64,000 bases of DNA, from positions 459-64,458 of the forward strand of contig DAQX01000008.1 in NCBI GenBank assembly GCA_002503055.1. Direction: 5' to 3'. The position numbers and the translations under genes were made by a program. The notes under the pieces are model-generated. The model made no database searches. It saw only the letters and a program-made list of their open reading frames with translations, and was not told the DNA's origin. The DNA is from Euryarchaeota archaeon UBA86. GTDB taxonomy: Archaea; Thermoplasmatota; Poseidoniia; Poseidoniales; Thalassarchaeaceae. This document shows positions 9,284 to 62,276 of this stretch, piece by piece. The first letter of the stretch is position 1. Each line of letters starts with the position of its first letter.

Positions 9284-9284
9284 G

Positions 9285-14149: not shown

Positions 14150-14205
14150 GTTGATAGTTCAACTTCAGGGGAAGAGGCCATTTCTGTGAACATACTCGTA
14201 GAGGC

Positions 14206-15330: not shown

Positions 15331-15468
15331 TGTGGTAGAATTATCTTTAGATTATCGTTTATTTGTGGTATTTAGTGGACATATGTGCACCCATATTGCC
15401 TATTTTGGATTAATTTACTATATTAGTGGTTAATCTAATCACAGTACATCGAAGATTTGTTGTACTAA

Positions 15469-27696: not shown

Positions 27697-27749
27697 CCCC
27701 AAGGGGGTCAAAGGAATGCTCAAAGGGCGTTGCTTACGCTGGCCTACTG

Positions 27750-28325: not shown

Positions 28326-31079
28326 TTGTCCGGCAAGAAGAAGGTCGAGGGTTATCGTCAGCAGAGCGGTAAACTTCCCTTCCCACGCCCCGGTTCGGGA
28401 GGAAGTCGCAGAACCAGTGAGCCTCGAGACGAAGAGGCAATTGCCGCTTCAAAGGCGGCTGATGGGCATCGTCACGATGATCTGATTACTGGCTCTACCA
28501 TTGGCAAGCCAACTGGCTTGATCGATAGTCGTTGGAAGGTCACCGGCCAAGCTCAGTATGGTGACGATATCCGACTACCGGGTGAATTGATTGGTAGAAT
28601 TGTTAGGTCGACGCGTCACTATGCCAGAGTCCTGTCAATCGATGCCTCGGCAGCCTTGGAACTCCCAGGGGTGGTTGCTATAGCAACCGGAGAAGATGCT
28701 CCAGCTAGATTTGGTGTCCTGCCAGTAACCAAGGACGAGCATGCTATGGCCGTAGAGAAGGCTCGTCATGTCGGTGACCCAATCGCTTGTGTGGCAGCTG
28801 TGGATGAAGATACTGCCAGGGAGGCCGTTCGTCTAATCGAGATAGAGTACGAGGATCTTGATGCGATTCACGATATGCGAAAAGGGCTCGAGGATTCTCC
28901 GGAACCAATTCATGACCGTGGAGACTACCATATAGGGTCCTCGAATGTTCAGAAACGAGTTTTCCAAGAGTTTGGAGACATCGGAGGGATGACTGAGAAT
29001 GCGATTGCTAGCCATACCTCTGATTGGCTCTTCGCTGGTGCAAATCACGGCTTCACTGAACCACATGCCGTCGTCGCCAATTGGGATCCATCTGGCAGGT
29101 TGACCCTATACACTCCTCAGCAAGTTCCACATTATGTTCACAGAGCCCTAGCTGATGTACTGGAAACACCGATGCATCAAATCAATGTCTTCAGGACATT
29201 CGTTGGCGGGGGATTCGGCGGTAAGTCCGATCCGTTTCCGCATGAGATGTGTGCCGCTATCTTATCTCGCAAGGCAGGTAGACCGGTCAGAATCAACTTC
29301 GATCGTGAAGAGGTGTTCTGGGTAAATCGGGGCCGGCATCCTTCTCGTATAGAGATGAATCTACACGCTGACTCTCAGGGCAGAATCTGTGGCATAGAGA
29401 CTGATGCTCTAATCGACGGTGGGGCATTTGCCTCCTTTGGTCATGTTACTACTTACTACAACGGAGTCCTACATACAGCTCCTTACGAAATCGGAGCGTT
29501 CCATTACACGGGTGCCAGAGTGTGGACGAACAAACCGGCCAGTGGGGCGATGAGGGGCCACGGAGCTGTGAACTCAAGGTGTGCGGTTGAAGTTGGAATG
29601 GATGATTTGGCTGAAAAATTAGGCGTGGATCCCATTACACTCAGACTGGCTAATCTTCTCCCCCCTCATTCTGCTACAATCACTGGATTCAGGGTCACAA
29701 GTATAGGGATGAGAGAATGTCTGGAGAGGGTCAAGGAGGCTTCGGGCTGGGATGAGAAGTTCCGCAAGTTGCCCGATGGCCATGGAATAGGGATAGGTTG
29801 TGGATTCTTCATCTCCGGCAGCGGGCTGCCTATTCACTGGGAGCCAAACAAGTTCCCTCACGCTACAGTCCATCTCAAGATAGACATGGATGGAGGAGTA
29901 ACCGTTCACACCGGGGCAGCAGATATCGGCCAGGGCTCAGATACCGTAGTTGCTCAATCGGTCGCCGAAGTTCTTGGGTTACCATTGGATATGATTCGAG
30001 TTCGTAGTCGAGAGACTGATACCTCTCCCGTCGACTTAGGCTCATATTCATCTCGTGTTACTTTCATGAATGCAAATGCTGCAATTTCGGCGGCTATGAA
30101 CATCCGAGAGAAGTTGCTTGAAGCCGCTTCCATAGTGACTGGTGTGTCATCTGACACGCTGGTCATTGGTGACAGGCGAATATATGACAAGAGAGACCCG
30201 GGAATCGGGATTTCTTATCTCGAAGCTTTACACAAGGCTCAGGAAGAGAAGGGTGCACTGGTCTCATCCGGGGCCTATCGCACCCCTCCAATGGGAAGAG
30301 TCCACAAGGGTGCTGGAGCAGGAATTGCCCCGGCATACTCGTTCTCAGCATATGTTGCCGAGGTCAAGGTAGATGCGGAAACAGGTCAAACAAAGGTGCT
30401 TAAGATCTGGGCAGCCCATGACTGTGGCAAGGCCCTGAATCCTCTATCCGTCAAAGGACAGATGATTGGCTCATGCCACATGGGCCTAGGGCAAGTCCTT
30501 AGTGAGGAAATGAAGTATGGGCGCAATGGACACCTGATGAATCCAGACCTGCTCGACTACAAGATTCCTAGCGTTCACGAGATGCCTGAGGTTGTGCCCA
30601 TAATCGTCGAGTCCAACGACTCAGAGGGTCCTTTCGGTGCTAAAGAGGCCGGAGAAGGTCCTCTTCTGCCAATACTCCCAGCCGTCTGTAACGCTGTATA
30701 TGATGCGATTGGGGTCAGAACTAGCGAGTTGCCAATCACCCCGGACAGAATGTATCGTCTAATCGAGAGAAGATGCAAGAAGGAGAGTGTTGAGCCTAGT
30801 GATCTCCATTCTCCTAGGCTCGAGCACTCTGAATTGCAAGGCGTCCTTGAGTCGCGGGCTGCCGAGCATGCTGCTAGAGATTCTGCCCGTGCATCAATGG
30901 AGGATGATTCTCCATATCATAACGGTGCTTTGTTTGGATTTGATCCGCTTGTTCCCGCAGATGAACAGGATGACAGATGGATTGTCAGCGTTACTCCAAG
31001 CGAGGAATATGTGGGCTCTCCGCGCTTGGCAGGAAGCGCTTGGAAGCATGCGGAGAGAAGGCACGGAGGTGGTATCTGA
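28326..31079 (+). CDS. Molybdenum hydroxylase large subunit (xanthine dehydrogenase/aldehyde oxidase family, molybdopterin-binding)
   Basis: RVTGQAQYGDDI N-terminal a/b-hammerhead start, GGGFGGK, GAMRGHGAV, TGAADIGQGSDT and GAKEAGEGPLLP motifs. There are extra N- and C-terminal extensions. TTG start directly after the small-subunit stop. Confidence 0.92.
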   Translation: MSGKKKVEGYRQQSGKLPFPRPGSGGSRRTSEPRDEEAIAASKAADGHRHDDLITGSTIGKPTGLIDSRWKVTGQAQYGDDIRLPGELIGRIVRSTRHYARVLSIDASAALELPGVVAIATGEDAPARFGVLPVTKDEHAMAVEKARHVGDPIACVAAVDEDTAREAVRLIEIEYEDLDAIHDMRKGLEDSPEPIHDRGDYHIGSSNVQKRVFQEFGDIGGMTENAIASHTSDWLFAGANHGFTEPHAVVANWDPSGRLTLYTPQQVPHYVHRALADVLETPMHQINVFRTFVGGGFGGKSDPFPHEMCAAILSRKAGRPVRINFDREEVFWVNRGRHPSRIEMNLHADSQGRICGIETDALIDGGAFASFGHVTTYYNGVLHTAPYEIGAFHYTGARVWTNKPASGAMRGHGAVNSRCAVEVGMDDLAEKLGVDPITLRLANLLPPHSATITGFRVTSIGMRECLERVKEASGWDEKFRKLPDGHGIGIGCGFFISGSGLPIHWEPNKFPHATVHLKIDMDGGVTVHTGAADIGQGSDTVVAQSVAEVLGLPLDMIRVRSRETDTSPVDLGSYSSRVTFMNANAAISAAMNIREKLLEAASIVTGVSSDTLVIGDRRIYDKRDPGIGISYLEALHKAQEEKGALVSSGAYRTPPMGRVHKGAGAGIAPAYSFSAYVAEVKVDAETGQTKVLKIWAAHDCGKALNPLSVKGQMIGSCHMGLGQVLSEEMKYGRNGHLMNPDLLDYKIPSVHEMPEVVPIIVESNDSEGPFGAKEAGEGPLLPILPAVCNAVYDAIGVRTSELPITPDRMYRLIERRCKKESVEPSDLHSPRLEHSELQGVLESRAAEHAARDSARASMEDDSPYHNGALFGFDPLVPADEQDDRWIVSVTPSEEYVGSPRLAGSAWKHAERRHGGGI

Positions 31080-51944: not shown

Positions 51945-52223
51945 TTGGCAAGGATTGATTGCCTCTTTACAATCTCAGGAGTTGAGCAAATGGCGTTTGA
52001 GGACCTCACCGAGTTCGAATTACGACTGCTGAAGTGGATTTCAGCATCCGACTTTGTCGGGGTTGCTTGGTCCACAAAGCGTGCAGCTGATGCGTTCAAG
52101 GTTGATGAAAAGGAGGTCTACGAGGCACTAGCATCCTTGACTGCCAAAGTTCGAGATAACATTCACATCTACTATGACGAAGGTGCAATCAGGATTGTCG
52201 CTGACGACTCACTGCCATCTTAG
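51945..52223 (+). CDS. Small hypothetical protein
   Basis: 92-aa ORF immediately after gpsA with no motif. The internal ATG (MAFEDLTEFEL...) may be the true start. It overlaps the convergent phnE-like gene end by 15 nt. Confidence 0.3.
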   Translation: MARIDCLFTISGVEQMAFEDLTEFELRLLKWISASDFVGVAWSTKRAADAFKVDEKEVYEALASLTAKVRDNIHIYYDEGAIRIVADDSLPS

Positions 52224-53090
52224 TATATCGGGAAGAATTACTCCCCACCAAGAAGGTCTATTCACATTGTCTTCTTCATTGAAGAATGATCGTGCATATA
52301 TTGAGAGGAAATCAATCAGTAGAACGGTGATGAAGATAATTATCAAGTAAGCCATGACTTTGTCATATTGCAGGAACTTGAGATATAGATTGATGTAATA
52401 TCCAATTCCACCGGCCCCTACTATTCCGATTACTGTACCGTGCCTTACATTGTACTCAAACATGAAAATAGCCTGTGAAATCAAATGATTTGCAGACTCC
52501 GGTATCACCACTCCAAGAGATTTCTCAAATTTCGATAACCCCATTGAATTCGCCGCATCTAGAGGGGCTTTGTCCATACCCTCGATAGCCTCGTACTGCA
52601 GTTTTCCTAAGTAACCGACCGTGTAAATTGTCATGGCAAAAATTCCCGATAGAGGTCCGAGTCCAATCAGAATTACGAAGAAAATTGCCCAGATTAGGCT
52701 TGGTAGACTTCTGCCAGCGGCTAAGATGAATCTGGCCAGGTATGAGATTCTTGGAGAGTTCAGATTTCTAGCCGCTAGAAGTGCTATTGGTAGAGATATA
52801 ATCATTCCAAGAATTGTTGAGACAAATGCTATCTTTATTGTCTCAATCATTCCAATCCAAGCAGTAGAGCAAGTAAAACTGAATGGTTCTGGAGTTGTAC
52901 ACACCGGATATGCCTGTGCCTCCAGAACCGTCCAATCTGGTGGCCACAAAGATTGATGGAAGAAGTCTATGAGGTTTTGAAAACTACCTGATAATCGGCC
53001 CCAATCGTCAATCATCCCGTTTAGAACAACAAAACCCGAAATGAATAGTGCGAGTAGGGCGAAAGAGTTCTTTCCGAAACCTGTAATCAT
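52209..53090 (-). CDS. phnE: ABC transporter permease, PhnE-like (phosphonate-type importer family)
   Basis: EAIEGMDKAPLDAANSMG, FEYNVRHGTVIGIVGAGGIGYYI and a terminal D..S...R pattern typical of PhnE. ATGA overlap with the ATPase gene. Confidence 0.8.
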   Translation of the reverse strand: MITGFGKNSFALLALFISGFVVLNGMIDDWGRLSGSFQNLIDFFHQSLWPPDWTVLEAQAYPVCTTPEPFSFTCSTAWIGMIETIKIAFVSTILGMIISLPIALLAARNLNSPRISYLARFILAAGRSLPSLIWAIFFVILIGLGPLSGIFAMTIYTVGYLGKLQYEAIEGMDKAPLDAANSMGLSKFEKSLGVVIPESANHLISQAIFMFEYNVRHGTVIGIVGAGGIGYYINLYLKFLQYDKVMAYLIIIFITVLLIDFLSIYARSFFNEEDNVNRPSWWGVILPDILRWQ

Positions 53091-53815
53091 AGGTTAACCT
53101 CCAGTGCTGTAGTTTCGGAAAGGAATGGATTTACCCTTCCGTCATCAATGACTAGCATCCTATCTGCCATCGATTTAGCACGAGATACATCATGCTCCAC
53201 TACGATTAGAGCTGCTTGAGTTGAACGAACATATTCAGTAACCTCGAATAATACACTATTCAATGTCTCTTCATCTAACTCACTGAGGAATTCATCTGCC
53301 ATAATCAGCCTAGGTGATTGTGCCAGAGAACGTGCAGTTGCAACTCTTCTCTGTTGCCCACCCGAGAGTCTGCGAATTGGTTCGTCAATCTTGTCTGTAA
53401 GGCCCATTCTTTCAATCGCATCTTCGGTCCTGGACAGTGACTCTGCCGACGGAGTAATTGTATGAGGATTGGTGTGGCCGGCTCTAGCCCCCATCATCAC
53501 ATTGTGCTTCACACTAGCATGACGAACCAGTCCCAATCTCTGAGGGATGTATCCTACGGATCCACGAGGCGGAAGTTTCGGAAGTATTGAATTGCAAACT
53601 TCCAATGTTCCTGTAATTGGACTTACTAATCCGGCAATTGTACGGAGAAGTGTTGTCTTGCCGACCCCTGAAGCTCCGGTGATAGCAACGATTTCTCCAG
53701 GGTATATTTTCAAATCTGGAACCTGTACTAGAGGATTTTTTGAATCAAATCCGATGGTCAAACCGCTCAATGAGACGATTGGTTTCGAATTCTGATTTTC
53801 ATTATTTCCTGTCAT
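53087..53815 (-). CDS. phnC: ABC transporter ATP-binding protein, PhnC-like
   Basis: Walker A GASGVGKTT, Q-loop GYIPQRLGL, signature LSGGQQRRVATARSL, Walker B LIMADEF. The PhnC assignment comes from translational coupling to the PhnE-like permease. ATG 53815 is preferred over TTG 53818. Confidence 0.8.
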   Translation of the reverse strand: MTGNNENQNSKPIVSLSGLTIGFDSKNPLVQVPDLKIYPGEIVAITGASGVGKTTLLRTIAGLVSPITGTLEVCNSILPKLPPRGSVGYIPQRLGLVRHASVKHNVMMGARAGHTNPHTITPSAESLSRTEDAIERMGLTDKIDEPIRRLSGGQQRRVATARSLAQSPRLIMADEFLSELDEETLNSVLFEVTEYVRSTQAALIVVEHDVSRAKSMADRMLVIDDGRVNPFLSETTALEVNL

Positions 53816-53966
53816 CAAATCGCCTTCCTTTATTCGTTGGATGCTTGATAATGTTAGACATAAATGAAATTCTGCTCATCTGCGATGCAAGATGGAATGG
53901 GTTTGCCCTTGCCGCGGATTGCACAGCAATCCGTGGACGACCAACATTTGAATGATTGTGTTAGAG

Positions 53967-54074: not shown

Positions 54075-55334
54075 TTATTGGAGTGTGCCAATGTCATCAG
54101 CAGTGATGCCGAAAGCATCCCATGCAGGTTGTAAGTACATGCGAACATGTGCCTCGTAATCTGCTGTTGTGTCGCCATCATTGCTTAGATCGAATATGTC
54201 CACAATCTGAGCTGCTCCGTAGTCTGCGTAGTAGCCTGGCATTCCGCTTCCGGGGAACACAGAGGCGAATCCATTGCAGATTTCCTCGGTTGTTGCTGCT
54301 GCATATACGATGTGTCCTGCTCCCATGTTATAGCAGACCATCTCACCAGAACTTGGAGATTCGACCCAAGAGAATCCATCACAGTGTGCTGCTTCGCCTG
54401 CACCAATGTATGCCATTCCGTGAGTCTGGTTGTTGTAGCATGCATCTGTGTAGTCGGCCACATAAGCCTCGATTACTCTGAAGAATGCATGACCCTCGGC
54501 TTGGTGCTTATCGTAGTCGCCGTTTGCCTCGTCGAGATCAACAGTCATCTTTGATGCATACCTTACGGAAGCCTGTGAATAGACGATGACAATTTGCTTG
54601 AGAACCGCATCTCGAGCGTCAATCACGCCCTGCATGTCTTCATTCTCTAGTGCGGTTAGTCCGGCGTTCATTGCCGCGAGTGTGGCTACATTGGTTGCGT
54701 CGCCTGTTCCGAAGTTACCTCCTCTCTTAGCTGCAGTTGCGAAAGGTCCGCATCCGTCGTAGTCGTGGTCAGAATCATCAGGACCGTGATAGAATGCCCA
54801 TCCTTCGTCCCAAGCGTGCTGTGCATCGTCAGGGCCCCAGTTTCCTGCCTCGGCCTTGATTATGGCAGCATTGAGCTCGTGGATTGCATATGCGGTCATT
54901 ACACCGTTCTGAATTCCCTTCTCAACAGCTTGGTCTCTTACTGTGTCAGACTCGCCTGCGAATGCACCGGTGCCATCGATTGCCGCAGATACGAAGGAGT
55001 CCCATGATCCATCAACGCCATAATATGCGTCGTAGGCATGGTTCTTGCCAGAAGCGGATGCAAAGCCTTCCAAAGTCCTGAAGGATCCGTCGGACTTCTC
55101 AGCGTACTTTCCGTCCCCATAGATATCCGAAACTTCGTCCCAATCGTATGCTCCAGATAGATCCTTGATGTCACAAACATCACCCATCAGCATGCGATGG
55201 TTATCGACATTGGATGCGTACTCGTAGCCACCATCTTCGCCATCTAGTTCAATTTCATCATCACTTGTGCAACCTGCCAAAACAGATGCACAGAGAAGCA
55301 GTGTAATCAACATTGTAATTGTCTTTTTAGTCAT
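54075..55334 (-). CDS. Secreted acidic lipoprotein of unknown family, upstream of phnC/phnE-like genes; candidate metal-responsive binding protein
   Basis: Signal peptide MTKKTITMLITLLLCASVLAGC (lipobox). Conserved-looking segments FRTLEGFASASGKNHAYDAYYG, AWDEGWAFYHG and AEGHAFFRVIEAY. Two copies of the TTTAGG-N4-CCTAAA palindrome lie upstream. Confidence 0.6.
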   Translation of the reverse strand: MTKKTITMLITLLLCASVLAGCTSDDEIELDGEDGGYEYASNVDNHRMLMGDVCDIKDLSGAYDWDEVSDIYGDGKYAEKSDGSFRTLEGFASASGKNHAYDAYYGVDGSWDSFVSAAIDGTGAFAGESDTVRDQAVEKGIQNGVMTAYAIHELNAAIIKAEAGNWGPDDAQHAWDEGWAFYHGPDDSDHDYDGCGPFATAAKRGGNFGTGDATNVATLAAMNAGLTALENEDMQGVIDARDAVLKQIVIVYSQASVRYASKMTVDLDEANGDYDKHQAEGHAFFRVIEAYVADYTDACYNNQTHGMAYIGAGEAAHCDGFSWVESPSSGEMVCYNMGAGHIVYAAATTEEICNGFASVFPGSGMPGYYADYGAAQIVDIFDLSNDGDTTADYEAHVRMYLQPAWDAFGITADDIGTLQ

Positions 55335-55335: not shown

Positions 55336-55351
55336 TTTAGGTCTCCCTAAA
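55336..55351. promoter_or_regulatory. Palindromic operator-like site TTTAGGTCTCCCTAAA (copy 1 of 4)
   Basis: TTTAGG-N4-CCTAAA inverted repeat, 2 nt upstream of the ATG of the 54075..55334 lipoprotein gene. Confidence 0.45.
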
Positions 55352-55379
55352 CCTTCGGACAGATATTCTATTTATCAAG

Positions 55380-55395
55380 TTTAGGTGGCCCTAAA
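55380..55395. promoter_or_regulatory. Palindromic operator-like site TTTAGGTGGCCCTAAA (copy 2 of 4)
   Basis: Same inverted repeat in the divergent intergenic region, 46 nt from the lipoprotein ATG and 75 nt from the DUF454 ATG. It is followed by ACTGTAAAAAAAAA, similar to the flank of copy 4. Confidence 0.5.
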
Positions 55396-55469
55396 CTGTA
55401 AAAAAAAATCTCTTTTTTACGAATAGGTCAGTTACATTAGATTATATTTGAAAGTACATCTCCATTGGC

Positions 55470-55877
55470 ATGAACGGTGTTCATGAAGCTAAACTCAGCG
55501 AGAATAAACTGAGTAGAGTATTTTGGTTTTCTTTAGGAGTAATATTCACGGGTATTGGACTGATAGGGATTGTAGTTCCGGGTTTACCAACGACTCCCTT
55601 GATGATTCTAGCTGCTGCGTGTTTTGCAAAGTCCAGTCAGAGATTCTATGATTGGATTATCAATAACAGAATGTTTGGAGAACATGTGAAGAATTACCGA
55701 GAAGGTAATGGAATTCCTAAGAGAAGTAAGCCGGTAATTTTGGGAACAATGTGGACATTTGTGTTGTTTGCTGTTTTCATTGCAATCCCAGACAGTGCTC
55801 CCGAAATTTCGCGAAACGCAACAGTGATTTTGGCCGTGATTGGGACCATTTTTATCCTTAGAATTCCTAATTTCTAG
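55470..55877 (+). CDS. DUF454 (YbaN-like) inner-membrane protein
   Basis: IGIVVPGLPTTPLMILAAACFAKSSQRFYDWIINNRMFGEHVKNYREG matches the YbaN/DUF454 N-terminal signature. 135 aa. Confidence 0.75.
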   Translation: MNGVHEAKLSENKLSRVFWFSLGVIFTGIGLIGIVVPGLPTTPLMILAAACFAKSSQRFYDWIINNRMFGEHVKNYREGNGIPKRSKPVILGTMWTFVLFAVFIAIPDSAPEISRNATVILAVIGTIFILRIPNF

Positions 55878-56901
55878 GTAAAGGATGCAAAAATGCATTC
55901 TTTACAAGTTGTCCCAATCCTTGAATCCAACTCGGATCATCATTCAGACAACTGACGACGGTCAATTCTTTTCCGCCATGTTCCAAGAAATGTTCGCGGA
56001 TTTCGATATCTAGCTCTTCCAATGTTTCCAGGCCATCGGCGAGAAATGCGGGGGAGACAATGACGATCTTAGATTTCCCATTTTTAGCCAAATGCTCAAC
56101 CATTTTTGTGGTTGATGGTTGTAGCCATTTTGCGGGACCAAGACGACTTTGGTAACTCATCGACCAGTCTGATTCAGCAATCCCCAGAGCTCCGACTACA
56201 GACAATGTTGTGAGCATGCAGTGGTGAGCATAGCACATGGAATTACCCTCTACTTTGAGTTCGCAGCAATGTTCAACCTTCTGGCAGTGTTTACCACTTG
56301 AGTCGGCGCGTTTCACATGAGAAACTGGGAGGCCGTGATAGGAGAACAATAAGTGCGCTCCATCCGTCAAATGTGGATGAATTGATTTTGCCAATGGATC
56401 GATGAATTCTGGGTTGGTTGGAAAATGTGGCAATTGAGTAATAGAAGGATTCCAATTCATCTCTTTGAGTTGAAAATATGCATGTTTCAGCGAAGATTCG
56501 GTTGTCGCCTGTGCATGATGAGGAAACATTGGAGCGAGTAATAGTTCGTCGATTCCTGATTGTTTCAATTTCTCTAATCCTGAACGAATACTAGGATTCC
56601 CATAGCGCATTCCGACTTCACAACGAATATCTCCCAAACTAGATTCTAATGCGTCAGTCATTCTTTGAGTGTAGACACGGAGAGGCGAACCTTCTTGCAT
56701 CCATATACTCTCATATCTAGGTGCAATTTTCTTTGGGCGTGTTCTGAGGATTATTCCATGTACCAAAAGGTGTCGAAGAGGAGTAGGGATATCGATAACA
56801 TCGGGGTCGAGTAGAAATTCTCGAAGATATGTGCGAACAGAGGGTACCGTAGGTTCATCGGGCGTACCGATGTTCATTATCAGAACGCCTCTCTTAACCA
56901 C
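55867..56901 (-). CDS. hemH: Ferrochelatase
   Basis: GVLIMNIGTPDEP, VRTYLREFLLDPDVIDIP, RPKKIAPRYESIW..GSPL, FSYHGLPV and YQSRLGP..WLQPST motifs. GTG start. Confidence 0.9.
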   Translation of the reverse strand: MVKRGVLIMNIGTPDEPTVPSVRTYLREFLLDPDVIDIPTPLRHLLVHGIILRTRPKKIAPRYESIWMQEGSPLRVYTQRMTDALESSLGDIRCEVGMRYGNPSIRSGLEKLKQSGIDELLLAPMFPHHAQATTESSLKHAYFQLKEMNWNPSITQLPHFPTNPEFIDPLAKSIHPHLTDGAHLLFSYHGLPVSHVKRADSSGKHCQKVEHCCELKVEGNSMCYAHHCMLTTLSVVGALGIAESDWSMSYQSRLGPAKWLQPSTTKMVEHLAKNGKSKIVIVSPAFLADGLETLEELDIEIREHFLEHGGKELTVVSCLNDDPSWIQGLGQLVKNAFLHPLPRN

Positions 56902-56946
56902 GCCTCTCGGAATAGTTCAGAGTATTAATTGGTTAGTTTTCAGTCG

Positions 56947-58158
56947 CTACAATTCTGAATTGACTTCAGCTAGTTGGATTATCGATCCATCCCATCCAAA
57001 AACAATCAATTGATTGGCATGACCCTTACCAAAACCAACTATCATTTTCCCTGCCGTACCTATGAGATTATTCTCCCAAGTTCCACTAGAATTACTAATT
57101 GCCCAAATCGATCCGGAGCAAAAGTCACCATAGATATACGAGTCTCGCAGAGAAGATGGCCCCCAGTCCATCCAGAAACCTCCTGTGATTGAGCAGTTTC
57201 CATTGGTGTGTGGATATGTATGAATTATCTCTGGAGTTGAAATTGAACTATTGAAATTACATTCCCCTCCAGCTACGAAATTTTGTGGACCTTCCATTTC
57301 AGACCAACCGAAGTTGGTTGATTGCAGCATAGGAACTAAATTCACTTCTTCCCAACAATTCTGACCTACATCTGAGATCCAGAGACGGTTATCGGTGTCC
57401 ATGTCGAATCTCCAAGGATTCCTCAATCCATAGTGTAGAATGTATGGATCTTCGCCTGGTGATGAGATTGATGTAGAAGGAGAAATTTGGTAACCATCAA
57501 AGGAAAAGAGCAGGATTGAACCTAGTTTTGTTGATTCGTTCTGGCCGTGCCCTTCCGGATCATTAGCACTTCCTCCGTCCCCTATACCCCAGAGAAATTC
57601 TCCATTTCCAATTGAAACTAGATGGCCTCCGTTGTGATTGCGGTAGGGTTGCTCGATTTCCATTAAAACGGTAATTGATTCTAAATTCAGATTGTTCTGA
57701 GCATCAATTTCAGCATATGCCAAAATTAGATTGGATTGGTTTGGGCCGTCACATGGCCCAGACTCTATGTATGAGAGAAGGACTTTGTTTGAGTTCTCAA
57801 AATCGTCATCGAAGGCAAATCCCAGCAGTCCTTGCTCCATGTGGCATCTTCCAATCAAGGAGCTCAAATCTGCTACATTTGTTCCTGGGTTATTTGCATC
57901 AAAATTGGATTCAGTTGGCCAAGAAATGATAAAACCGTTCAGATCAATAATCCATAACTCATCAGAATATGGATGTTCTAAAGATAGAATTGGATTCATT
58001 AGTCCGTTGAGATATTCTAAACATTCCAATTCATATTCTTCGACAATGTTGCAATCAGATGCAATGACATCTGGCCATTCGTATTCATCTGAATCATCAG
58101 AAAGGCATCCGCATAAGACGGGAACCACCAACAATAGGGAAATGGCCAGAACTCGCAT
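56947..58158 (-). CDS. Secreted lipoprotein, PQQ-dependent glucose/sorbosone dehydrogenase-like beta-propeller (GSDH/YliI family)
   Basis: Signal peptide MRVLAISLLLVVPVLCGC. NHNGGHL, GDGGSANDPEGHGQN, LGSILL, GLRNPWRF, DVGQNCWEEVN and NFGW motifs. ATG 58158 lies 2 nt after the stop of the upstream transferrin-like gene. Confidence 0.8.
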   Translation of the reverse strand: MRVLAISLLLVVPVLCGCLSDDSDEYEWPDVIASDCNIVEEYELECLEYLNGLMNPILSLEHPYSDELWIIDLNGFIISWPTESNFDANNPGTNVADLSSLIGRCHMEQGLLGFAFDDDFENSNKVLLSYIESGPCDGPNQSNLILAYAEIDAQNNLNLESITVLMEIEQPYRNHNGGHLVSIGNGEFLWGIGDGGSANDPEGHGQNESTKLGSILLFSFDGYQISPSTSISSPGEDPYILHYGLRNPWRFDMDTDNRLWISDVGQNCWEEVNLVPMLQSTNFGWSEMEGPQNFVAGGECNFNSSISTPEIIHTYPHTNGNCSITGGFWMDWGPSSLRDSYIYGDFCSGSIWAISNSSGTWENNLIGTAGKMIVGFGKGHANQLIVFGWDGSIIQLAEVNSEL

Positions 58159-58160
58159 AC

Positions 58161-59210
58161 TCAAGAGAAGTAAGCCTGTATTCCTGGTACATTGGACACC
58201 GCGGCTGCGTATGTCCCCAAGTGGTCTTCAGCGTTTGCAGGTGACATTCCTTCGGTGTTTAGCAAATCTTTCAGGATTTGTCTCCCCTCTTCATCATCAT
58301 CAAGTGCAATCACTGCATTTTGAACTGCTAGAACTGTATCTTCATCCATATATTCTGGATTGTAGAGAACTGGGTGACTTGGCGCTTGACCAAATGCAGG
58401 TAGCATCACCACATCGTCCCTATCCAAGCACCAATCATTAGCGTCTGAACCAGTACAATAGCTATCGTAAACAGTATCCTTGGCAAGGGTAATGTCTCCT
58501 GTTCCGTCCATCATGCACCTTAGGGCTCCCTTGTAGCCAGAGTAAGGTGTGCCGCCCTCAGGGATACTCGAGTCTTCTGAGAAGAAGTTGGTCACGGTGG
58601 CCCTGAGTGAATCAATATCATTGGGGTCTCCGATTACTTCCGCGTATTCATTACCGATTAGATAGCCCATTGGGATTAGCATACCAGCACTCTTGAGCCA
58701 ACCGGTGTGGCACGAAGTCTTGCCCTCCATAAGAGCAAAGGGGTCTGTTTCAGGATCATCATCGAGATAAGCTGCTGCCATGTCCGAATCTGCCCTTACC
58801 CAAGCTGCGGCATTGTAGTAAGTCCTCCCATCTGACTTATGCTCGGCTGCTAGCACATCTAGCCCATACACTTCCCAAGCTAACCAAGCTGCGGCTCCAT
58901 CCACGAACCCGATATCGGCGTTACCCTTGTCGATTGCCTCGATGGTTGCAGCCTCATCGGCTACTGCATAAATCTCCACATCCATGTCTAATAGTTCACT
59001 TAGTCTATCTGCAAGATGTTGTGGATTATTATCCCAGATGAGGTAAGTATCCTTAACCTCGTAAGCTACTACTAGGCAGTTTTCATCGTCATCACACTGA
59101 TCATAGTTCACATCAAAAATGAAGTACAGAGTAGATGCTATGATTACCATCCCTGCTGCAATATAAGTCCAATTTTCCTTTGCTGATAGGAACTCTCTTA
59201 CTCGGTTCAT
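58161..59210 (-). CDS. Membrane-anchored single-lobe transferrin-family / PhnD-fold iron-binding protein homologue
   Basis: N-terminal signal-anchor helix. Block-wise match by eye to the human serotransferrin N-lobe. NADIGFVDGAAAW matches EADAVTLDAGLVY. RTYYNAAAWVRADS matches TFYYAVAVVKKDS. GKTSCHTGWLKSAGMLIPMGYL matches [28 protein letters not shown] matches VANFFS. YSGYKGALRCMMDGTGDI matches YFGYSGAFKCLKDGAGDV. QAPSHPV matches QVPSHTV. ATG 59210 is preferred over ORF-track TTG 59222. Confidence 0.85.
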   Translation of the reverse strand: MNRVREFLSAKENWTYIAAGMVIIASTLYFIFDVNYDQCDDDENCLVVAYEVKDTYLIWDNNPQHLADRLSELLDMDVEIYAVADEAATIEAIDKGNADIGFVDGAAAWLAWEVYGLDVLAAEHKSDGRTYYNAAAWVRADSDMAAAYLDDDPETDPFALMEGKTSCHTGWLKSAGMLIPMGYLIGNEYAEVIGDPNDIDSLRATVTNFFSEDSSIPEGGTPYSGYKGALRCMMDGTGDITLAKDTVYDSYCTGSDANDWCLDRDDVVMLPAFGQAPSHPVLYNPEYMDEDTVLAVQNAVIALDDDEEGRQILKDLLNTEGMSPANAEDHLGTYAAAVSNVPGIQAYFS

Positions 59211-59240
59211 GGGGGTGCGCAAACGATATCAAATAAAATG

Positions 59241-59256
59241 TTTAGGGGGCCCTAAA
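59241..59256. promoter_or_regulatory. Palindromic operator-like site TTTAGGGGGCCCTAAA (copy 3 of 4)
   Basis: Same inverted repeat, 31 nt upstream of ATG 59210 of the transferrin-like gene. Confidence 0.5.
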
Positions 59257-59294
59257 TTAGAAAGAGATGTCTAATTTTATTCTAAATTAGGTAG

Positions 59295-61616
59295 CTAATC
59301 CAGTAATAGAAGACTTAGTTGCATTAGTGCAGCTCCGAAAGTCATTCCCACAATCATGAATCTGGGTCTTTCTTGGATCAACGCCTGGGGTATTAATTCC
59401 TTGAAACTGACTACTGCCATAATTCCTCCAACAAATGCCAATGACAACCCTACAATAAAGGGAGACAAAATTGATCCGAGAATAAGTAACGCGAACAATG
59501 CTCCAATTGGCTCGGTCAGGCCGGTTGCCAATGCAATCATTACAGCCTTAAATTTCCCTCCGCCACCGGCCTGAATGGGAGCTGCTACAGCTATTCCTTC
59601 TGGGATATTGTGCAGTCCGATAGCGACCATCAGAACGATCCCATATTGGGCTGATTCAAGTACGGCAACACCTATCGCAAGACCTTCGGGGAAGTTATGA
59701 ATTCCCAGAGCAATCGCCGTGAAAATTCCAGACATGTACATTTTCTTCTTCTCTGTCATTTCCTCGTCAATGTTGTTTTTTCTAAGTAGAATATTTGCTA
59801 GAAAAACTATAGATGCCCCGATTGCAAAAGAAATTGAAATCCCGATAAAGCCGAATTCCATTGCTTGCCCTAGCCATAAATCAAATATGGAAATGAGGAG
59901 CATTACGCCGGCAGCCATCCCAAGCATGAATGACATCATTTCTCTGCTTATTTCTTTAATTAAAATTACAATTAGGCCCCCTATGCCTGTCGCTAACCCA
60001 GCCATTAGAGCTATCATAAATGGGAAAACCCATGATTCGGAATTCCCTTCTAGACTTTTAATCTCAATTATTGGGCTATCTTCGGCTATTAGGTTCAAGG
60101 ATTGAACCATCTCAAGAACAAAATTAGTGACCAATTCAGCACCCTCTTTGTCGATTAATTCACCTTGTGAATCAATATCGAGATTATTGCTAAAGTCTGT
60201 ACAAAATGGCCAAATCTCTGAGGAGGTTGCATCCAATCTCTGGAAGCCTATGCCAACTGTGTCGATGCCTGCGTGATTGAAACTCCTATGGCTGCTACAG
60301 CCTTGAATAGAGTCAATGGAAGGATTGTTAGCGATAACATTAGCAGAATATTGACCGGCCCCTCCAAAAGTAGTCTTGGCAGAAGATTTGGCTTTAGAAA
60401 CAAGAACATTGTTGGATGCCTCTACTGTAATTGAGTCAATGCCCATGGCTTCATTGAGAATTGCTGAATCGATGTTGATGTATAACTCCGGCTTTTGACT
60501 TTCTTCGATCTGATCAAGGAAAGCTTGACTACTGAGCCATCCAAGTTCCTCACCGCCCCATGAAACAAATTTCACAGTTCTATCTAGTTCTCTACCATTC
60601 AATTGTCTAGCGATTTCGACAAGTTGTGCCACGCCTATCGAATTGTCTACTTGACCTTCGCTCAAGTAAGAAGTGTCGTGATTGGCGCCAATCATTACTG
60701 ATTTGGAGGATTTTCCGGGCAATTCTCCAGTTACAATCTGTACATTAGTGACGCCGGTCTGGGCCGCTTCCCAATTGCCGTCAAGAATCGCATACTTTGA
60801 TCCATCCGATTCTGCCTCATCGATGAACTCTATGAAAGTCTGAGCAGTTTCATGTGTGATGAATATGAATGGTATCAAATCGTAATCTGGGAAAGCTTCG
60901 GGGAATGAGATTAGCCTATCATCATCAGTCAGAACTACTATCGGTTCAAAGTATGTCGATTCCAGTTCCTCCTCGTAAATCATCAGAACTGATGCTCCCG
61001 CTTCTATTGCTTCTCTGTAATAATCAGAAAGGCTTCTGCCAGTATTCTCTATTTCATGGTGAATCAGAATTGCCTTATCCGTAAGATCTCCCGAGTTGGT
61101 AAAATCTTCCGAGGTCCCACTTCCTAGATTTACCATCTCGCTATCATGTTTGTGAGAACCTCCAGAATAACCAAGAAAAGTGAATGCATCCCTGTGCTCC
61201 AAGTCGCCTGTAGAAGAAATCTGAACTCTGCCTGTCCCTGCCGAACCATCTGGAAGTCCGGGGATATTGCCGATACCCTGCTCTATTTGCGCATGCATAT
61301 GGATTGGTTCATCACCTTCATCGGGCTCTACAAGCCATGAGCCCCAAATCTCAAATTCTGTAATTTGTACATCAGATAGTCCTGCATCTTCAAACATCTC
61401 TGAGATAATAATTGATGCTTCCATCTCCGAGTTAGAACCAGGAACTCTGGGCCCAAGGGAACTTAGATTACTTGACTCCTCTAGAATTTTATCTCCATCT
61501 GAATGAAACTCAATAGATGGCTCGTGAAGAATGAAACCAGCTGCAAATGAAGAAATGAGTACGACGGCGGAAATTATTCCAAGAGTGTTTATTCTCCTAT
61601 AGGGGTCGTATTCCAT
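59295..61616 (-). CDS. Fusion protein: N-terminal TM anchor + extracytoplasmic PA-domain-containing M28-family metallopeptidase-like domain + C-terminal ZIP (ZupT-like) metal transporter
   Basis: M28 features: LGPRVPGS, VTGELPGK..VMIGANHDT, GQVDNSIGVAQLVEIAR, FVSWGGEELGW, YINIDS, SSHRSF. A PA-like insert (GDLTDKAILIHH...AIEAGASVLMIY). The ZIP part (about the last 245 aa) has GIHNFPEGLAIGVA and GLHNIPEGIAVAAP. Confidence 0.85.
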   Translation of the reverse strand: MEYDPYRRINTLGIISAVVLISSFAAGFILHEPSIEFHSDGDKILEESSNLSSLGPRVPGSNSEMEASIIISEMFEDAGLSDVQITEFEIWGSWLVEPDEGDEPIHMHAQIEQGIGNIPGLPDGSAGTGRVQISSTGDLEHRDAFTFLGYSGGSHKHDSEMVNLGSGTSEDFTNSGDLTDKAILIHHEIENTGRSLSDYYREAIEAGASVLMIYEEELESTYFEPIVVLTDDDRLISFPEAFPDYDLIPFIFITHETAQTFIEFIDEAESDGSKYAILDGNWEAAQTGVTNVQIVTGELPGKSSKSVMIGANHDTSYLSEGQVDNSIGVAQLVEIARQLNGRELDRTVKFVSWGGEELGWLSSQAFLDQIEESQKPELYINIDSAILNEAMGIDSITVEASNNVLVSKAKSSAKTTFGGAGQYSANVIANNPSIDSIQGCSSHRSFNHAGIDTVGIGFQRLDATSSEIWPFCTDFSNNLDIDSQGELIDKEGAELVTNFVLEMVQSLNLIAEDSPIIEIKSLEGNSESWVFPFMIALMAGLATGIGGLIVILIKEISREMMSFMLGMAAGVMLLISIFDLWLGQAMEFGFIGISISFAIGASIVFLANILLRKNNIDEEMTEKKKMYMSGIFTAIALGIHNFPEGLAIGVAVLESAQYGIVLMVAIGLHNIPEGIAVAAPIQAGGGGKFKAVMIALATGLTEPIGALFALLILGSILSPFIVGLSLAFVGGIMAVVSFKELIPQALIQERPRFMIVGMTFGAALMQLSLLLLD

Positions 61617-61645
61617 GGCTTCCGCAAGAGAAGTGGTTCTAATAA

Positions 61646-61661
61646 TTTAGGTAGCCCTAAA
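61646..61661. promoter_or_regulatory. Palindromic operator-like site TTTAGGTAGCCCTAAA (copy 4 of 4)
   Basis: Same inverted repeat, 30 nt upstream of ATG 61616 of the M28-ZIP fusion gene, followed by ACTACAAAAAAAA. Confidence 0.5.
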
Positions 61662-62276
61662 CTACAAAAAAAATAGCCATTTTGGCTTGGAAAGTAACCA
61701 AAGCAATTTTGATTTTGAAGCATTAAACAAGTCTACCCGGTGTCTTCTGACCCTAACCAACTTAGTATTCGATTTTCGGAGTCTCTCATGCCAATATTCT
61801 CTGGAGTTCTTTGGGAAGGATTTCTCAAATCTAGCCGGAGACGCCATTAGAGTAAAGTTTTGATTTCTTCTGACATTTTCCACTACCTTTTCTCTACCTT
61901 CTTCAGTAAGCAGGCTTTTCACCTCGATCATTACTTTCTCTGGTCTTTCATTGAGTATTTCTAGAACTTCACTTAGAGTTGGAATAGAAATTCCTAGTGT
62001 CCTTCCGAGTTCTTGGATTTGGACTAAAGTGAGATGATTTAGAATGTGTGATTTACCATCTATGTGAATCTCATCATCATGGAATACGAATATCTCAGAA
62101 TCTGAAGATTCGTGAATATCAAACTCCCAATATCTGAAATTTCGAAGATTGAAGATGGTATTTTCAATTGAATCTTTTAGAGATTGGATTGTATTCTCGA
62201 GTGGAGTTCCAGAACCTCCTAATCTGTGACCAAGATTCTTCAATAATTCACCTATATATCGCGAAGATATCGACAT
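61662..62276 (-). CDS. Glycerophosphodiester phosphodiesterase-family (GDPD) protein, short form
   Basis: GHRLGGSG..LENT and WEFDIHESSDSEIFVFHDDE match the GDPD HR...EN / E.D...D...v.HD pattern. AT-rich gene. Confidence 0.6.
   Translation of the reverse strand: MSISSRYIGELLKNLGHRLGGSGTPLENTIQSLKDSIENTIFNLRNFRYWEFDIHESSDSEIFVFHDDEIHIDGKSHILNHLTLVQIQELGRTLGISIPTLSEVLEILNERPEKVMIEVKSLLTEEGREKVVENVRRNQNFTLMASPARFEKSFPKNSREYWHERLRKSNTKLVRVRRHRVDLFNASKSKLLWLLSKPKWLFFL

What the first reader, a model, noticed from the sequence alone, without database searches (positions are those of the whole stretch)
55336..61661. Four copies of a 16-bp palindrome TTTAGG-N4-CCTAAA mark a small regulon (lipoprotein, transferrin-like operon, M28-ZIP)
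The exact arms TTTAGG/CCTAAA with a 4-nt spacer (TCTC, TGGC, GGGC, TAGC) occur at 55336-55351, 55380-55395, 59241-59256 and 61646-61661. I did not notice the motif elsewhere in the 64 kb. Copies 3 and 4 sit 31 and 30 nt upstream of their ATGs. In archaea with short or leaderless 5' UTRs that is the TATA/BRE position, so a bound dimer would occlude TBP/TFB. The lipoprotein gene has two copies, at 2 nt and 46 nt from its ATG. The sequence loosely resembles DtxR/IdeR-type iron boxes (TTAGGTTAGCCTAACCTAA). DtxR-family metalloregulators are common in Euryarchaeota. No regulator gene of that family is visible in this window.
Basis: seen in the sequence. Interest (0 to 1): 0.75.

Follow-up and report, generated by a model that had tools for sequence, protein, structure and literature searches.

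The report
Iron-box operators in marine archaea
The four 16-bp palindromes are real, conserved binding sites of the kind used by DtxR-family metal-sensing repressors; they sit on the promoters of three iron-uptake gene sets in an uncultured Marine Group II archaeon. This is a known kind of switch found in a new, ecologically important host.

Summary
TTTAGG-N4-CCTAAA occurs exactly four times in the window (0.01 expected), with no degenerate copies. All four lie in promoters of minus-strand genes: a FEA1-related lipoprotein (two boxes), a transferrin/PhnD-like binding-protein operon, and an M28-peptidase–ZIP fusion.

The window is from a Poseidoniales (Marine Group II) MAG. In other Poseidoniales lineages the same box sits 29-31 nt before the start codon. 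This holds for 11 of 12 M28-ZIP orthologs, all three binding-protein orthologs examined and one of two ABC ATPase genes. The protein identities are only 48-84% and the synteny is shuffled. A TATA-like stretch always follows the box directly. The tandem Fea1 arrangement, with its 28-nt gap, recurs in a second lineage.

The motif equals the ChIP-seq motif of the Haloferax volcanii iron regulator TroR. In metagenomes it precedes at least 120 DtxR-family genes, mostly dtxR-feoB operons.

Best reading: operators of an iron-sensing DtxR-family repressor that blocks the BRE/TATA region and, at Fea1, the transcription start.

One caveat remains. The only DtxR gene I found in Poseidoniales is MntR-like and carries a different operator (TTAGCC-N2-GGCTAA). 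The regulator that reads these boxes is therefore still unidentified.

Verdict: new member of a known kind, of moderate interest.

The parts
55336..55351 (.). Box 1 (gene-strand reading TTTAGGGAGACCTAAA). This is the proximal operator of the FEA1-related lipoprotein gene, 1 nt before its ATG. It covers the predicted transcription start and a possible GGAG ribosome-binding site.
   Evidence: Exact match. An identical box, including its spacer, lies 2 nt before the ATG of the 71%-identical ortholog in L085.
55380..55395 (.). Box 2 (gene-strand reading TTTAGGGCCACCTAAA). This is the distal operator of the Fea1 gene and directly abuts its TATA-like element. It lies 74 nt upstream of the divergent DUF454 gene.
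   Evidence: Exact match. The tandem arrangement with the same 28-nt gap is conserved in L082-L085.
55368..55375 (-). TATA-like element ATAAATAG between the two Fea1 boxes.
   Evidence: Read from the sequence. An AT-rich stretch 2-9 nt after the box is common to the 23 sites compiled. Its function is inferred.
54075..55334 (-). FEA1-related lipoprotein gene (419 aa, with a lipobox signal peptide).
   Evidence: Pfam Fea1 4.6e-19. NCBIfam FEA1_rel_lipo equivalog scores 345.7 bits against a cutoff of 250.
59241..59256 (.). Box 3 (gene-strand reading TTTAGGGCCCCCTAAA). It is the operator of the binding-protein operon, with 30 nt between it and the ATG at 59210.
   Evidence: Exact match. The gaps are 30 and 31 nt before the orthologs in L085 and L235.
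59231..59238 (-). TATA-like element TTTTATTT, 2 nt after box 3.
   Evidence: Read from the sequence. Function is inferred.
58161..59210 (-). Transferrin/PhnD-like substrate-binding protein (349 aa from the ATG at 59210).
   Evidence: Pfam Phosphonate-bd 3.4e-23 and Transferrin 2.6e-16. The same start is called in L367 and L368.
56947..58164 (-). GSDH-like (PQQ-type beta-propeller) lipoprotein. It overlaps the binding-protein gene by 4 nt, so it is probably co-transcribed.
   Evidence: Pfam GSDH 2e-20. The binding-protein/GSDH pair is conserved in L085, L235 and L358.
55867..56901 (-). Ferrochelatase, 45 nt downstream of the GSDH-like gene. It may be the last gene of the same operon.
   Evidence: Pfam Ferrochelatase 9e-99. 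Operon membership is inferred from the spacing only.
61646..61661 (.). Box 4 (gene-strand reading TTTAGGGCTACCTAAA). It is the operator of the M28-ZIP gene, with 29 nt between it and the ATG at 61616. It directly abuts the stop codon of the upstream GDPD-like gene.
   Evidence: Exact match. A box at 29-31 nt is present in 11 of 12 orthologs: L001, L003-L006, L086, L088, L237, L358, L359 and the window. For L358 and L359 the 29-31 nt figure uses a start codon I re-assigned; the called starts give 11 and 24 nt. L002 lacks the box.
61638..61645 (-). TATA-like element TTATTAGA immediately after box 4.
   Evidence: Read from the sequence. Function is inferred.
59295..61616 (-). Fusion protein of 773 aa: an extracellular M28 peptidase-like domain joined to a ZIP (ZupT-like) divalent-metal transporter.
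   Evidence: Pfam Peptidase_M28 4.9e-20 and Zip 3.7e-26. NCBIfam ZupT 5.7e-56, below the cutoff.
52209..53818 (-). ABC ATPase (53087-53818) and PhnE-type permease (52209-53090), the probable partners of the binding protein. No box precedes them here, but the orthologous ATPase gene has its own box in L085 and L234.
   Evidence: Pfam and NCBIfam assignments. Boxes at L085:13689 and L234:3936. Membership of the regulon in this genome is inferred.

Best explanation
The four palindromes are operator sites (iron boxes) for a homodimeric, metal-activated repressor of the DtxR family, of the TroR/IdeR type. They control an iron-acquisition regulon in a Marine Group II (Poseidoniales) archaeon. The regulon comprises a FEA1-related surface lipoprotein, a transferrin/PhnD-like binding-protein operon (with a GSDH-like gene and probably ferrochelatase), and an M28-ZIP metal importer. 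Each box lies directly upstream of a TATA-like element about 30 nt before the start codon, which implies leaderless or near-leaderless mRNAs. A bound dimer would therefore cover the BRE and the edge of the TATA box and keep TFB/TBP off the promoter. At the Fea1 promoter a second box covers the predicted transcription start and would also block RNA polymerase. When intracellular Fe(II) is high the holo-repressor binds and shuts the genes off; when iron is scarce it dissociates and the genes are expressed. Shown here: the sites, their conservation and position, the identity of the motif with a validated archaeal DtxR-family motif, and the natural association of this motif with DtxR-family genes. 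Inferred: binding in this organism, the sign of regulation, the metal, and the regulator gene.
For: (a) The count is non-random: 4 exact sites against 0.01 expected, and no degenerate copies.
(b) Phylogenetic footprint: I compiled 23 non-redundant Poseidoniales sites. All 12 arm positions are invariant in 23 of 23, while the spacers and flanks vary.
(c) Position is conserved. The box lies 29-31 nt before the start in 11 of 12 M28-ZIP orthologs (48-70% protein identity, different neighbours), in 3 of 3 binding-protein orthologs and in 1 of 2 ABC ATPase genes. For two M28-ZIP orthologs (L358, L359) the figure rests on a start codon I re-assigned.
(d) The tandem Fea1 boxes with a 28-nt gap recur in a 71%-identical lineage.
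(e) Control: there are 0 sites in 73 bacterial ZupT loci.
(f) An AT-rich TATA-like stretch lies 2-9 nt after the box in most of the 23 sites.
(g) The motif matches TroR of Haloferax volcanii, reported as TTTAGGC-NNN-CCTAAAANAN from ChIP-seq. That paper also reports tandem copies, iron-dependent repression and loss of repression on mutating the motif (PMC10783522). Exact boxes are present at the siderophore and Fe-ABC promoters on pHV3.
My rough chance estimate was below 1. All downstream ORFs are DtxR-family proteins.
(i) Of those regulators, 66 of 97 carry the DtxR/IdeR-type Cys102. The next gene is FeoB in 30 of 48 cases, and 44 of 120 have a second box 25-45 bp away.
(j) Deinococcus DR2539, a DtxR-family protein, has been crystallised as one dimer on ATTTTAGTCGCGCCTAAAAT, which has the same 6-N4-6 geometry (bioRxiv 10.1101/2024.02.12.579695).
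(k) The target genes are iron-related. Pfam describes Fea1 as a 'low iron-inducible periplasmic protein'. The others are transferrin-like, ZIP and ferrochelatase genes, and ferritin is a neighbour in L085.
Against: No regulator that fits was found.
- There is no DtxR-family gene in the window, in the 10 kb beyond its end, or near most target loci.
- The one DtxR-family gene found in Poseidoniales (L359:8393-9049) has 1129 homologs.
- NCBIfam scores that gene as MntR-like.
- In 118 of its 120 listed orthologs it has Lys or Arg at the position of DtxR Gln43, and Glu at the position of Cys102.
- Its own operon is preceded by a different palindrome, TTAGCC-N2-GGCTAA.
- None of the 106 TTTAGG-autoregulated regulators I could score has Lys at that position.
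- The same palindrome also occurs in tandem arrays on IMG/VR viral contigs that carry no DtxR gene in the stretches fetched. The motif alone therefore does not prove the regulator family.
- Leaderless transcription is inferred. The general AT peak at -28 to -23 in Poseidoniales promoters is weak.
- The metal is inferred. The same box geometry serves a Mn sensor in Deinococcus, and ZIP and PhnD-like proteins are not iron-specific.
Confidence: 0.8

Rival explanations
1. The sites are DtxR-family operators, but the signal is manganese (or zinc) rather than iron. The boxes would be read by the MntR-like DtxR protein that Poseidoniales encode next to an ArsP_2-type permease, and that protein would tolerate either G or C at arm position 6.
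For: It is the only DtxR-family gene found in about 450 kb of Poseidoniales DNA, and it is widespread in the order. In L359 it lies 2.2 kb from a box-bearing M28-ZIP gene and next to the acyl-CoA dehydrogenase gene that carries a box in other lineages. Its primary-site residues (D/N10, E102, E105, H106) are Mn-sensor-like, and its best NCBIfam hit is MntR. ZIP transporters carry several divalent metals. DR2539, a Mn sensor, binds the same 6-N4-6 geometry.
Against: Its own promoter carries TTAGCC-N2-GGCTAA in three lineages. No mixed or intermediate forms were seen among 23 regulon boxes or elsewhere in the Poseidoniales loci searched. Residue 43 is reported to hydrogen-bond a G-C pair and to set specificity. 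That residue is K or R here, but E, G, Q or D in all 106 TTTAGG-autoregulated regulators. The targets (FEA1-related, transferrin-like, ferrochelatase, ferritin neighbour) point to iron.
Confidence: 0.2
2. The boxes are binding sites for an activator. A factor bound just upstream of the TATA box would recruit TBP/TFB when iron is low, or would act as a dual regulator, rather than repress.
For: Archaeal activators commonly bind immediately upstream of BRE/TATA (established knowledge; not tested here). Haloferax TroR activates dpsA as well as repressing uptake genes.
Against: The box ends 0-2 nt from the TATA-like element, so it overlaps the BRE position rather than lying upstream of it. The proximal Fea1 box sits on the predicted start site. 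All targets are uptake genes, which TroR and other DtxR-family proteins repress.
Confidence: 0.1
3. The palindrome is recognised by a regulator outside the DtxR family, and the likeness to the TroR motif is convergent.
For: No matching regulator was identified in Poseidoniales. The same palindrome forms arrays on viral contigs that lack a DtxR gene in the fetched stretches.
Against: All 12 arm positions and the spacing are identical to a ChIP-validated DtxR-family motif. The box shows a massive excess upstream of DtxR-family genes in metagenomes. The targets are metal-uptake genes.
Confidence: 0.07
4. The palindromes act as RNA hairpins (terminators or attenuators), or are the ends of a small dispersed repeat, and are not protein operators.
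For: Boxes 3 and 4 lie just downstream of the preceding gene's stop codon. Two of the four fold better than shuffled sequence (z = -3.7 and -3.9).
Against: The stems are short (-4.5 to -11 kcal/mol) and no T-run follows them. None of the boxes is called terminator-like. The arms are invariant rather than covarying across 23 sites while the loop varies freely. Similarity stops at the 16 bp. The boxes keep a fixed distance to the downstream start codon, not to the upstream stop. In L086, L237 and L358 the box lies between divergent genes.
Confidence: 0.02

Closest known systems
TroR operator of Haloferax volcanii (DtxR family; PMC10783522)
   Same: The arms and spacing are identical: the motif is reported as TTTAGGC-NNN-CCTAAAANAN. 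Exact TTTAGG-N4-CCTAAA boxes are present at the siderophore and Fe-ABC promoters on pHV3. Tandem copies occur in some promoters. The targets are iron-uptake genes, and repression operates when iron is replete.
   Different: The host phylum differs (Thermoplasmatota/Poseidoniales rather than Halobacteriota), and so do the target genes (FEA1-related lipoprotein, transferrin-like binding protein, M28-ZIP, rather than siderophore genes). In Haloferax the motif is reported about 100 nt upstream of start codons; here it is fixed at about 30 nt and abuts the TATA element. No TroR ortholog has been identified here.
Archaeal DtxR-family regulons predicted by comparative genomics (Leyn and Rodionov 2015, J Bacteriol 197:451; not readable here, cited and recalled from memory)
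   Same: Palindromic DtxR-type motifs lie upstream of FeoAB, NRAMP, ZIP and TroA-type uptake genes and of the regulator genes themselves. My metagenome scan shows the same picture.
   Different: From memory, that study covered 77 cultured-archaeon genomes. I could not check whether any Marine Group II genome or this exact motif class was included.
DtxR/IdeR 19-bp iron box of Actinobacteria (TTAGGTTAGGCTAACCTAA)
   Same: It shares the TTAGG/CCTAA half-sites. The 19-mer contains overlapping TTAGG-N4-CCTAA-like units (my reading of the consensus). The regulators are Fe(II)-activated repressors of uptake genes.
   Different: The actinobacterial box is 19 bp and is bound by two dimers on opposite faces. 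Here there is a single 16-bp palindrome with no conserved extension, as expected for one dimer. It operates on an archaeal TBP/TFB promoter rather than a sigma-70 promoter.
Deinococcus radiodurans DR2539 bound to the dr1709 promoter (bioRxiv 10.1101/2024.02.12.579695; PDB 8PVT series)
   Same: The operator has the same 6-N4-6 geometry (TTTAGT-CGCG-CCTAAA) and is bound by one DtxR-family dimer. It gives a structural precedent for residue 43 reading the G-C pair.
   Different: DR2539 is a bacterial manganese sensor. One of its half-sites is imperfect, and residue 43 is Gly.
MDR1 of Archaeoglobus fulgidus (DtxR-family repressor; recalled from Bell et al. 1999, not checked here)
   Same: It is an archaeal DtxR-type repressor whose operators overlap the transcription start and block RNA polymerase recruitment. 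This parallels the proximal Fea1 box.
   Different: Most boxes here lie on the BRE side of the TATA element rather than downstream of it.

Membership tests
DtxR-family operator of the TroR/IdeR 'TTAGG' class (iron box) | A palindrome with TTTAGG / CCTAAA arms separated by 4 nt, matching an experimentally defined DtxR-family motif. | tested here: met
   All four window sites are exact. The TroR ChIP-seq motif is TTTAGGC-NNN-CCTAAAANAN, and exact boxes lie at TroR-bound promoters on pHV3.
DtxR-family operator of the TroR/IdeR 'TTAGG' class (iron box) | Location in the core promoter of metal-uptake or metal-homeostasis genes, conserved across related genomes. | tested here: met
   The targets are Fea1, a transferrin/PhnD-like binding protein, M28-ZIP and an ABC ATPase. 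There are 23 sites across the Poseidoniales lineages sampled, most of them 29-31 nt from the start codon and followed by a TATA-like stretch.
DtxR-family operator of the TroR/IdeR 'TTAGG' class (iron box) | The motif is associated in nature with DtxR-family regulator genes (autoregulation or co-location). | tested here: met
   At least 120 metagenomic loci carry the box 45-75 nt before the conserved N-terminal motif of a DtxR-family ORF. 30 of 48 are followed by feoB. None of these loci is from Poseidoniales.
DtxR-family operator of the TroR/IdeR 'TTAGG' class (iron box) | A cognate DtxR-family regulator with fitting specificity is encoded in the same genome. | tested here: inconclusive
   None is encoded in the window or in the 10 kb beyond its end. 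Poseidoniales do encode a DtxR-family protein. It is MntR-like, has K or R at residue 43, and carries its own TTAGCC-N2-GGCTAA operator. A search for a second paralog was uninformative.
DtxR-family operator of the TroR/IdeR 'TTAGG' class (iron box) | Metal-dependent binding, and metal-dependent expression of the downstream genes. | not testable with these tools
   This needs EMSA or DAP-seq, or metatranscriptomes. No paper on Poseidoniales iron regulation was found.
Actinobacterial DtxR/IdeR 19-bp iron box (two-dimer site) | A 19-bp interrupted palindrome, TTAGGTTAGGCTAACCTAA, with conserved positions beyond a 16-bp core. | tested here: not met
   Conservation stops at the 16 bp. The spacer and flanks vary across the 23 sites.
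MntR-type operator (TAGC-N4-GCTA class) | C at arm position 6 and G at the mirror position. | tested here: not met
   All 23 regulon boxes have G6/C11. The TTAGCC-N2-GGCTAA form is found only before the dtxR-arsP_2 operon and is absent from the window.
Intrinsic terminator or structured RNA element | A stable G+C-rich stem followed by a T-run, with compensatory changes that keep the stem. | tested here: not met
   None of the boxes is among the terminator-like sites. Folding energies are -4.5 to -11 kcal/mol. The arms never vary, so there is no covariation.
Dispersed repeat or MITE | Sequence similarity extending beyond the short palindrome, with copies scattered irrespective of genes. | tested here: not met
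   The flanks are unrelated. All copies are intergenic and at promoter distance. There are no copies elsewhere in the 64 kb.

The most novel reading that the evidence does not exclude
Poseidoniales may carry a single DtxR-family regulator, the MntR-like K/R43 protein encoded next to an ArsP_2 permease. That one protein would read two strictly separate operator classes: TTAGCC-N2-GGCTAA at its own operon and TTTAGG-N4-CCTAAA at the iron-uptake genes. One sensor would then integrate two metals or two affinity tiers. Alternatively, the TTTAGG boxes are read by a regulator that is not a DtxR-family member at all. Either case would break the residue-43 / base-6 specificity rule that the metagenomic data suggest.
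Probability: 0.2. Interest if true: 0.6.

Novelty: new member of a known kind. Interest (0 to 1): 0.5.

Why it matters
Marine Group II archaea are among the most abundant planktonic archaea. They are uncultured, and I found no open-access paper on how they sense or acquire iron.

A strictly conserved 16-bp operator defines an iron-uptake regulon in these organisms: a FEA1-related lipoprotein, a transferrin-like binding protein with its ABC transporter, and an M28-ZIP fusion. These are systems better known from eukaryotic phytoplankton. The operator gives a simple sequence marker for finding further regulon members in MAGs. It also names a set of transcripts that could report archaeal iron stress in ocean metatranscriptomes.

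The motif is identical to the Haloferax TroR box, so the promoters could be tested directly in a genetically tractable haloarchaeon.

A side result is a candidate recognition rule for the DtxR family. Residue 43 as E, G or Q goes with TTAGG, and K or R goes with TTAGC. The rule is cheap to test.

Tried and rejected
- Regulator search in held DNA. tblastn with C. diphtheriae DtxR (my recalled sequence, verified against PDB 1bi0) and B. subtilis MntR found nothing in the window or in about 0.5 Mb of fetched loci. Pfam on 30 window ORFs found only an unrelated HTH_10 regulator.
- Literature evidence for DtxR genes in Marine Group II. [quoted passage not shown]
- Text search for TTTAGG/CCTAAA returned only plant-telomere papers.
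- Leyn and Rodionov 2015 is not held in the library.
- None of the 120 metagenomic dtxR loci is from Poseidoniales.
- Search for a second, E/Q43-type Poseidoniales paralog. The representative search, the cluster look-up and one contig look-up gave no taxonomic handle. The best candidate (P0264) sits on a contig whose neighbouring genes look bacterial.
- The 10 kb beyond the window end on PBFF01000015.1 holds no regulator.
- The terminator/hairpin and dispersed-repeat readings were rejected.
- The general promoter profile of Poseidoniales genes gives only weak support for leaderless TATA spacing.

Full report
**1. Observation**

The pattern TTTAGG-N4-CCTAAA occurs exactly four times in the window, at 55336, 55380, 59241 and 61646. 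Dinucleotide-preserving shuffles give 0.01 matches on average. Relaxing the search to two mismatches adds nothing.

Read on the minus strand, which is the strand of the genes, all four sites have the form TTTAGGG-NN-M-CCTAAA.
- a FEA1-related lipoprotein (54075-55334; NCBIfam equivalog above its cutoff);
- a transferrin/PhnD-like binding protein (58161-59210), followed by a GSDH-like lipoprotein and ferrochelatase;
- a 773-aa fusion of an M28 peptidase domain with a ZIP transporter (59295-61616).

A PhnE-type permease and an ABC ATPase lie just downstream of the Fea1 gene.

**2. Organism**

Homologs of the M28-ZIP and Fea1 proteins come from Poseidoniales (Marine Group II) MAGs and Tara Oceans assemblies. 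The exact GDPD-like protein of the window is encoded on NCBI contig PBFF01000015.1 of GCA_002718575.1, with the same gene order.

**3. Conservation**

I fetched orthologous loci from other Poseidoniales lineages, and the box travels with the genes.
- M28-ZIP: 11 of 12 orthologs (48-70% identity, with quite different neighbours) have an exact box 29-31 nt before the start codon. For L358 and L359 this uses an alternative start I inferred from the spacing. One genome, L002, lacks the box.
- Fea1: the ortholog in a 71%-identical lineage keeps both boxes, the same 28-nt gap and an identical proximal box 2 nt from its ATG. A third lineage keeps only one box.
- Binding protein: the orthologs carry the box at 30-31 nt. 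In two lineages the ABC ATPase gene has its own box.

Across the 23 non-redundant sites the twelve arm positions never vary, while the spacer and flanks do. The only other shared feature is an AT-rich, TATA-like stretch 2-9 nt after the box.

In L086 and L237 a single box sits in a short divergent intergenic region about 30 nt from both start codons; L358 has a similar layout. That arrangement fits a palindromic operator serving two promoters. As a control, 73 bacterial ZupT loci held no site.

**4. What the motif is**

The Haloferax volcanii iron regulator TroR belongs to the DtxR family. Its ChIP-seq motif is reported as TTTAGGC-NNN-CCTAAAANAN. Some promoters carry tandem copies. Repression occurs under iron-replete conditions and is lost when both motifs are mutated (PMC10783522). 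I confirmed exact TTTAGG-N4-CCTAAA boxes at the siderophore and Fe-ABC promoters of pHV3, a replicon with 67.5% G+C in the stretch examined.

As an independent test I scanned the metagenome collection. The pattern was the box followed 45-75 nt later by codons for the DtxR-family N-terminal motif E-[DE]-Y-L-x-x-[hydrophobic]-Y. My rough chance expectation was below one hit.
- All downstream ORFs are DtxR-family proteins.
- Two thirds carry the DtxR/IdeR-type Cys102.
- The next gene is FeoB in 30 of 48 cases; NRAMP, ZnuA, ZIP and FeoA account for 14 of the other 18.
- 44 of the 120 have a second box 25-45 bp away.

This palindrome is therefore the operator of a widespread, mostly ferrous-iron-linked branch of the DtxR family.

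The crystal structure of Deinococcus DR2539 on ATTTTAGTCGCGCCTAAAAT shows that one dimer occupies this 6-N4-6 geometry.

**5. Mechanism**

With the start codon 29-31 nt after the box and a TATA-like element directly after it, the transcripts are predicted to be leaderless. The box would then span roughly -45 to -30, which covers the BRE and touches the TATA element. A bound dimer would exclude TFB/TBP.

At the Fea1 promoter the TATA-like element lies between the two boxes. The proximal box covers the predicted start site, and possibly a GGAG ribosome-binding site. That would add a block to polymerase recruitment.

These steps are inferred from the geometry. A general promoter profile of Poseidoniales genes shows only a weak AT peak at -28 to -23.

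The RNA-hairpin and terminator readings fail. The stems are weak, no T-tail follows them, none is called terminator-like, and the arms are invariant rather than covarying.

**6. The regulator: the open point**

No metal regulator is encoded in the window or in the 10 kb beyond its end.

On one Poseidoniales contig (L359) a 218-aa DtxR-family gene lies 2.2 kb from a box-bearing M28-ZIP gene. It has 1129 homologs with E of 1e-10 or better. NCBI names some of them as regulators from Thalassarchaeaceae and Poseidoniia. The gene is paired with an ArsP_2-type permease in each of the three lineages examined.

This protein does not fit the boxes well.
- NCBIfam scores it as MntR-like.
- 118 of its 120 listed orthologs have Lys or Arg at the position of DtxR Gln43, and all have Glu at the position of Cys102.
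- Its own operon is preceded by a different palindrome, TTAGCC-N2-GGCTAA. In two of the three lineages that palindrome again lies about 30 nt before the start and abuts a TATA-like element.
- That variant occurs nowhere else in the Poseidoniales DNA held, and not in the window.

Residue 43 is reported to hydrogen-bond a G-C pair and to set sequence specificity. Among 106 regulators autoregulated through TTTAGG boxes, residue 43 is E, G, Q or D and never K.

The simplest reading is two regulators: this MntR-like one for its own operon, and an unidentified E/Q43-type paralog for the iron boxes. A single regulator reading both classes is not excluded. My attempts to find a second paralog were uninformative.

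**7. Comparison and verdict**

This is a DtxR-family operator of the TroR/IdeR 'TTAGG' class, a known kind of switch. Comparative genomics of archaeal DtxR regulons was published in 2015 (cited; the paper is not held), and the exact motif was validated in Haloferax.

What is new:
- the host, an abundant uncultured marine archaeal order for which I found no paper on iron regulation;
- the regulon content (FEA1-related lipoprotein, transferrin-like binding protein and ABC system, M28-ZIP fusion);
- the rigid promoter geometry;
- the unresolved identity of the regulator.

I rate it as a new member of a known kind, with interest about 0.5.

Noticed in passing
L361:9955-9970, L363:9956-9971, L359:9059-9072: A second, distinct palindrome (TTTAGCCTTGGCTAAA, TTTAGCCTAGGCTAAA, and the core TTAGCCATGGCTAA) precedes the Poseidoniales dtxR-arsP_2 operon in three lineages. 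In two of them it lies 29-30 nt before the start and is followed by a TATA-like stretch. Together with the K/R43 versus E/G/Q43 split, this suggests a residue-43 / base-6 recognition rule in the DtxR family.
   Followed up: partly
L089-L113 (IMG/VR contigs), e.g. L089:3953-4061, L096:17-104, L105:10379-10438: 25 viral contigs carry tandem TTTAGG-N4-CCTAAA boxes. They include arrays with 20-, 22-, 24- and 34-bp periods in several related contig families. No DtxR-like gene lies in the fetched stretches. These could be phage genes placed under a host DtxR-type regulator, as with the corynephage tox gene, or sites for an unrelated phage protein.
   Followed up: partly
window 59295-61616; L001-L007: The M28-peptidase-ZIP fusion looks specific to Poseidoniales. 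In the genome-collection scan only the Poseidoniales loci matched beyond the ZIP domain, and the 73 other loci matched only residues from about 474 onward. The role of the extracellular peptidase-like domain on a metal importer is unknown.
   Followed up: partly
L086:9954-9969, L237:9956-9971, L358:9974-9989: A single box lies in a 58-78-nt divergent intergenic region. It serves M28-ZIP on one side and a PepSY-domain protein, an acyl-CoA dehydrogenase/DUF4149 pair, or the binding-protein/GSDH operon on the other. The acyl-CoA dehydrogenase also has its own box in L005 (7892) and a 1-mismatch box in L363 (1828).
   Followed up: partly
window 61662-62276; L085:9341-9772; L235:6850-7425; L358:12296-12871: A short GDPD-like protein (about 145-205 aa, partial glycerophosphodiesterase domain) is conserved next to the iron genes in several lineages. 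Its function is unknown and no box precedes it.
   Followed up: no
L237:38-8225 and 12352-16631: One lineage has a larger iron/heme island around M28-ZIP. It holds a heme-biosynthesis operon ending in ferrochelatase, a HugZ-like heme-degradation protein, flavodoxin and a FecCD-type ABC transporter. None of these has a box at one mismatch or fewer.
   Followed up: no
L002:4011-4026 and L002:9718-9733: The one genome whose M28-ZIP gene lacks a box has a 1-mismatch box at the start of the hemA (glutamyl-tRNA reductase)/hemCD operon. It also has an exact box 1 nt before a Pilin_N-domain surface protein gene and 82 nt before rmuC.
   Followed up: partly
L085:8742-9176: In the lineage with the 1.5-Mb contig, a ferritin-like gene (Pfam Ferritin in the precomputed hits) occupies the place that M28-ZIP has in the window. 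It lies between the GDPD-like gene and the boxed binding-protein gene, and has no recognisable box of its own.
   Followed up: no
window 8067-10282: A riboflavin-biosynthesis cluster: DHBP synthase, a cytidylyltransferase-like (FAD-synthetase-like) gene, riboflavin synthase and lumazine synthase.
   Followed up: no
window 27049-31079: An HTH_10 (halobacterial-type) regulator gene lies immediately upstream of a [2Fe-2S] small subunit and a 917-aa ORF that I did not scan. The layout resembles a CO/xanthine dehydrogenase-family cluster. This is the only transcription factor recognised among the window ORFs I scanned.
   Followed up: no
window 55470-55877: A DUF454 (YbaN-like) membrane protein gene is transcribed divergently from Fea1. 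Box 2 lies 74 nt upstream of its ATG, outside the usual 30-nt geometry, so co-regulation is doubtful.
   Followed up: no
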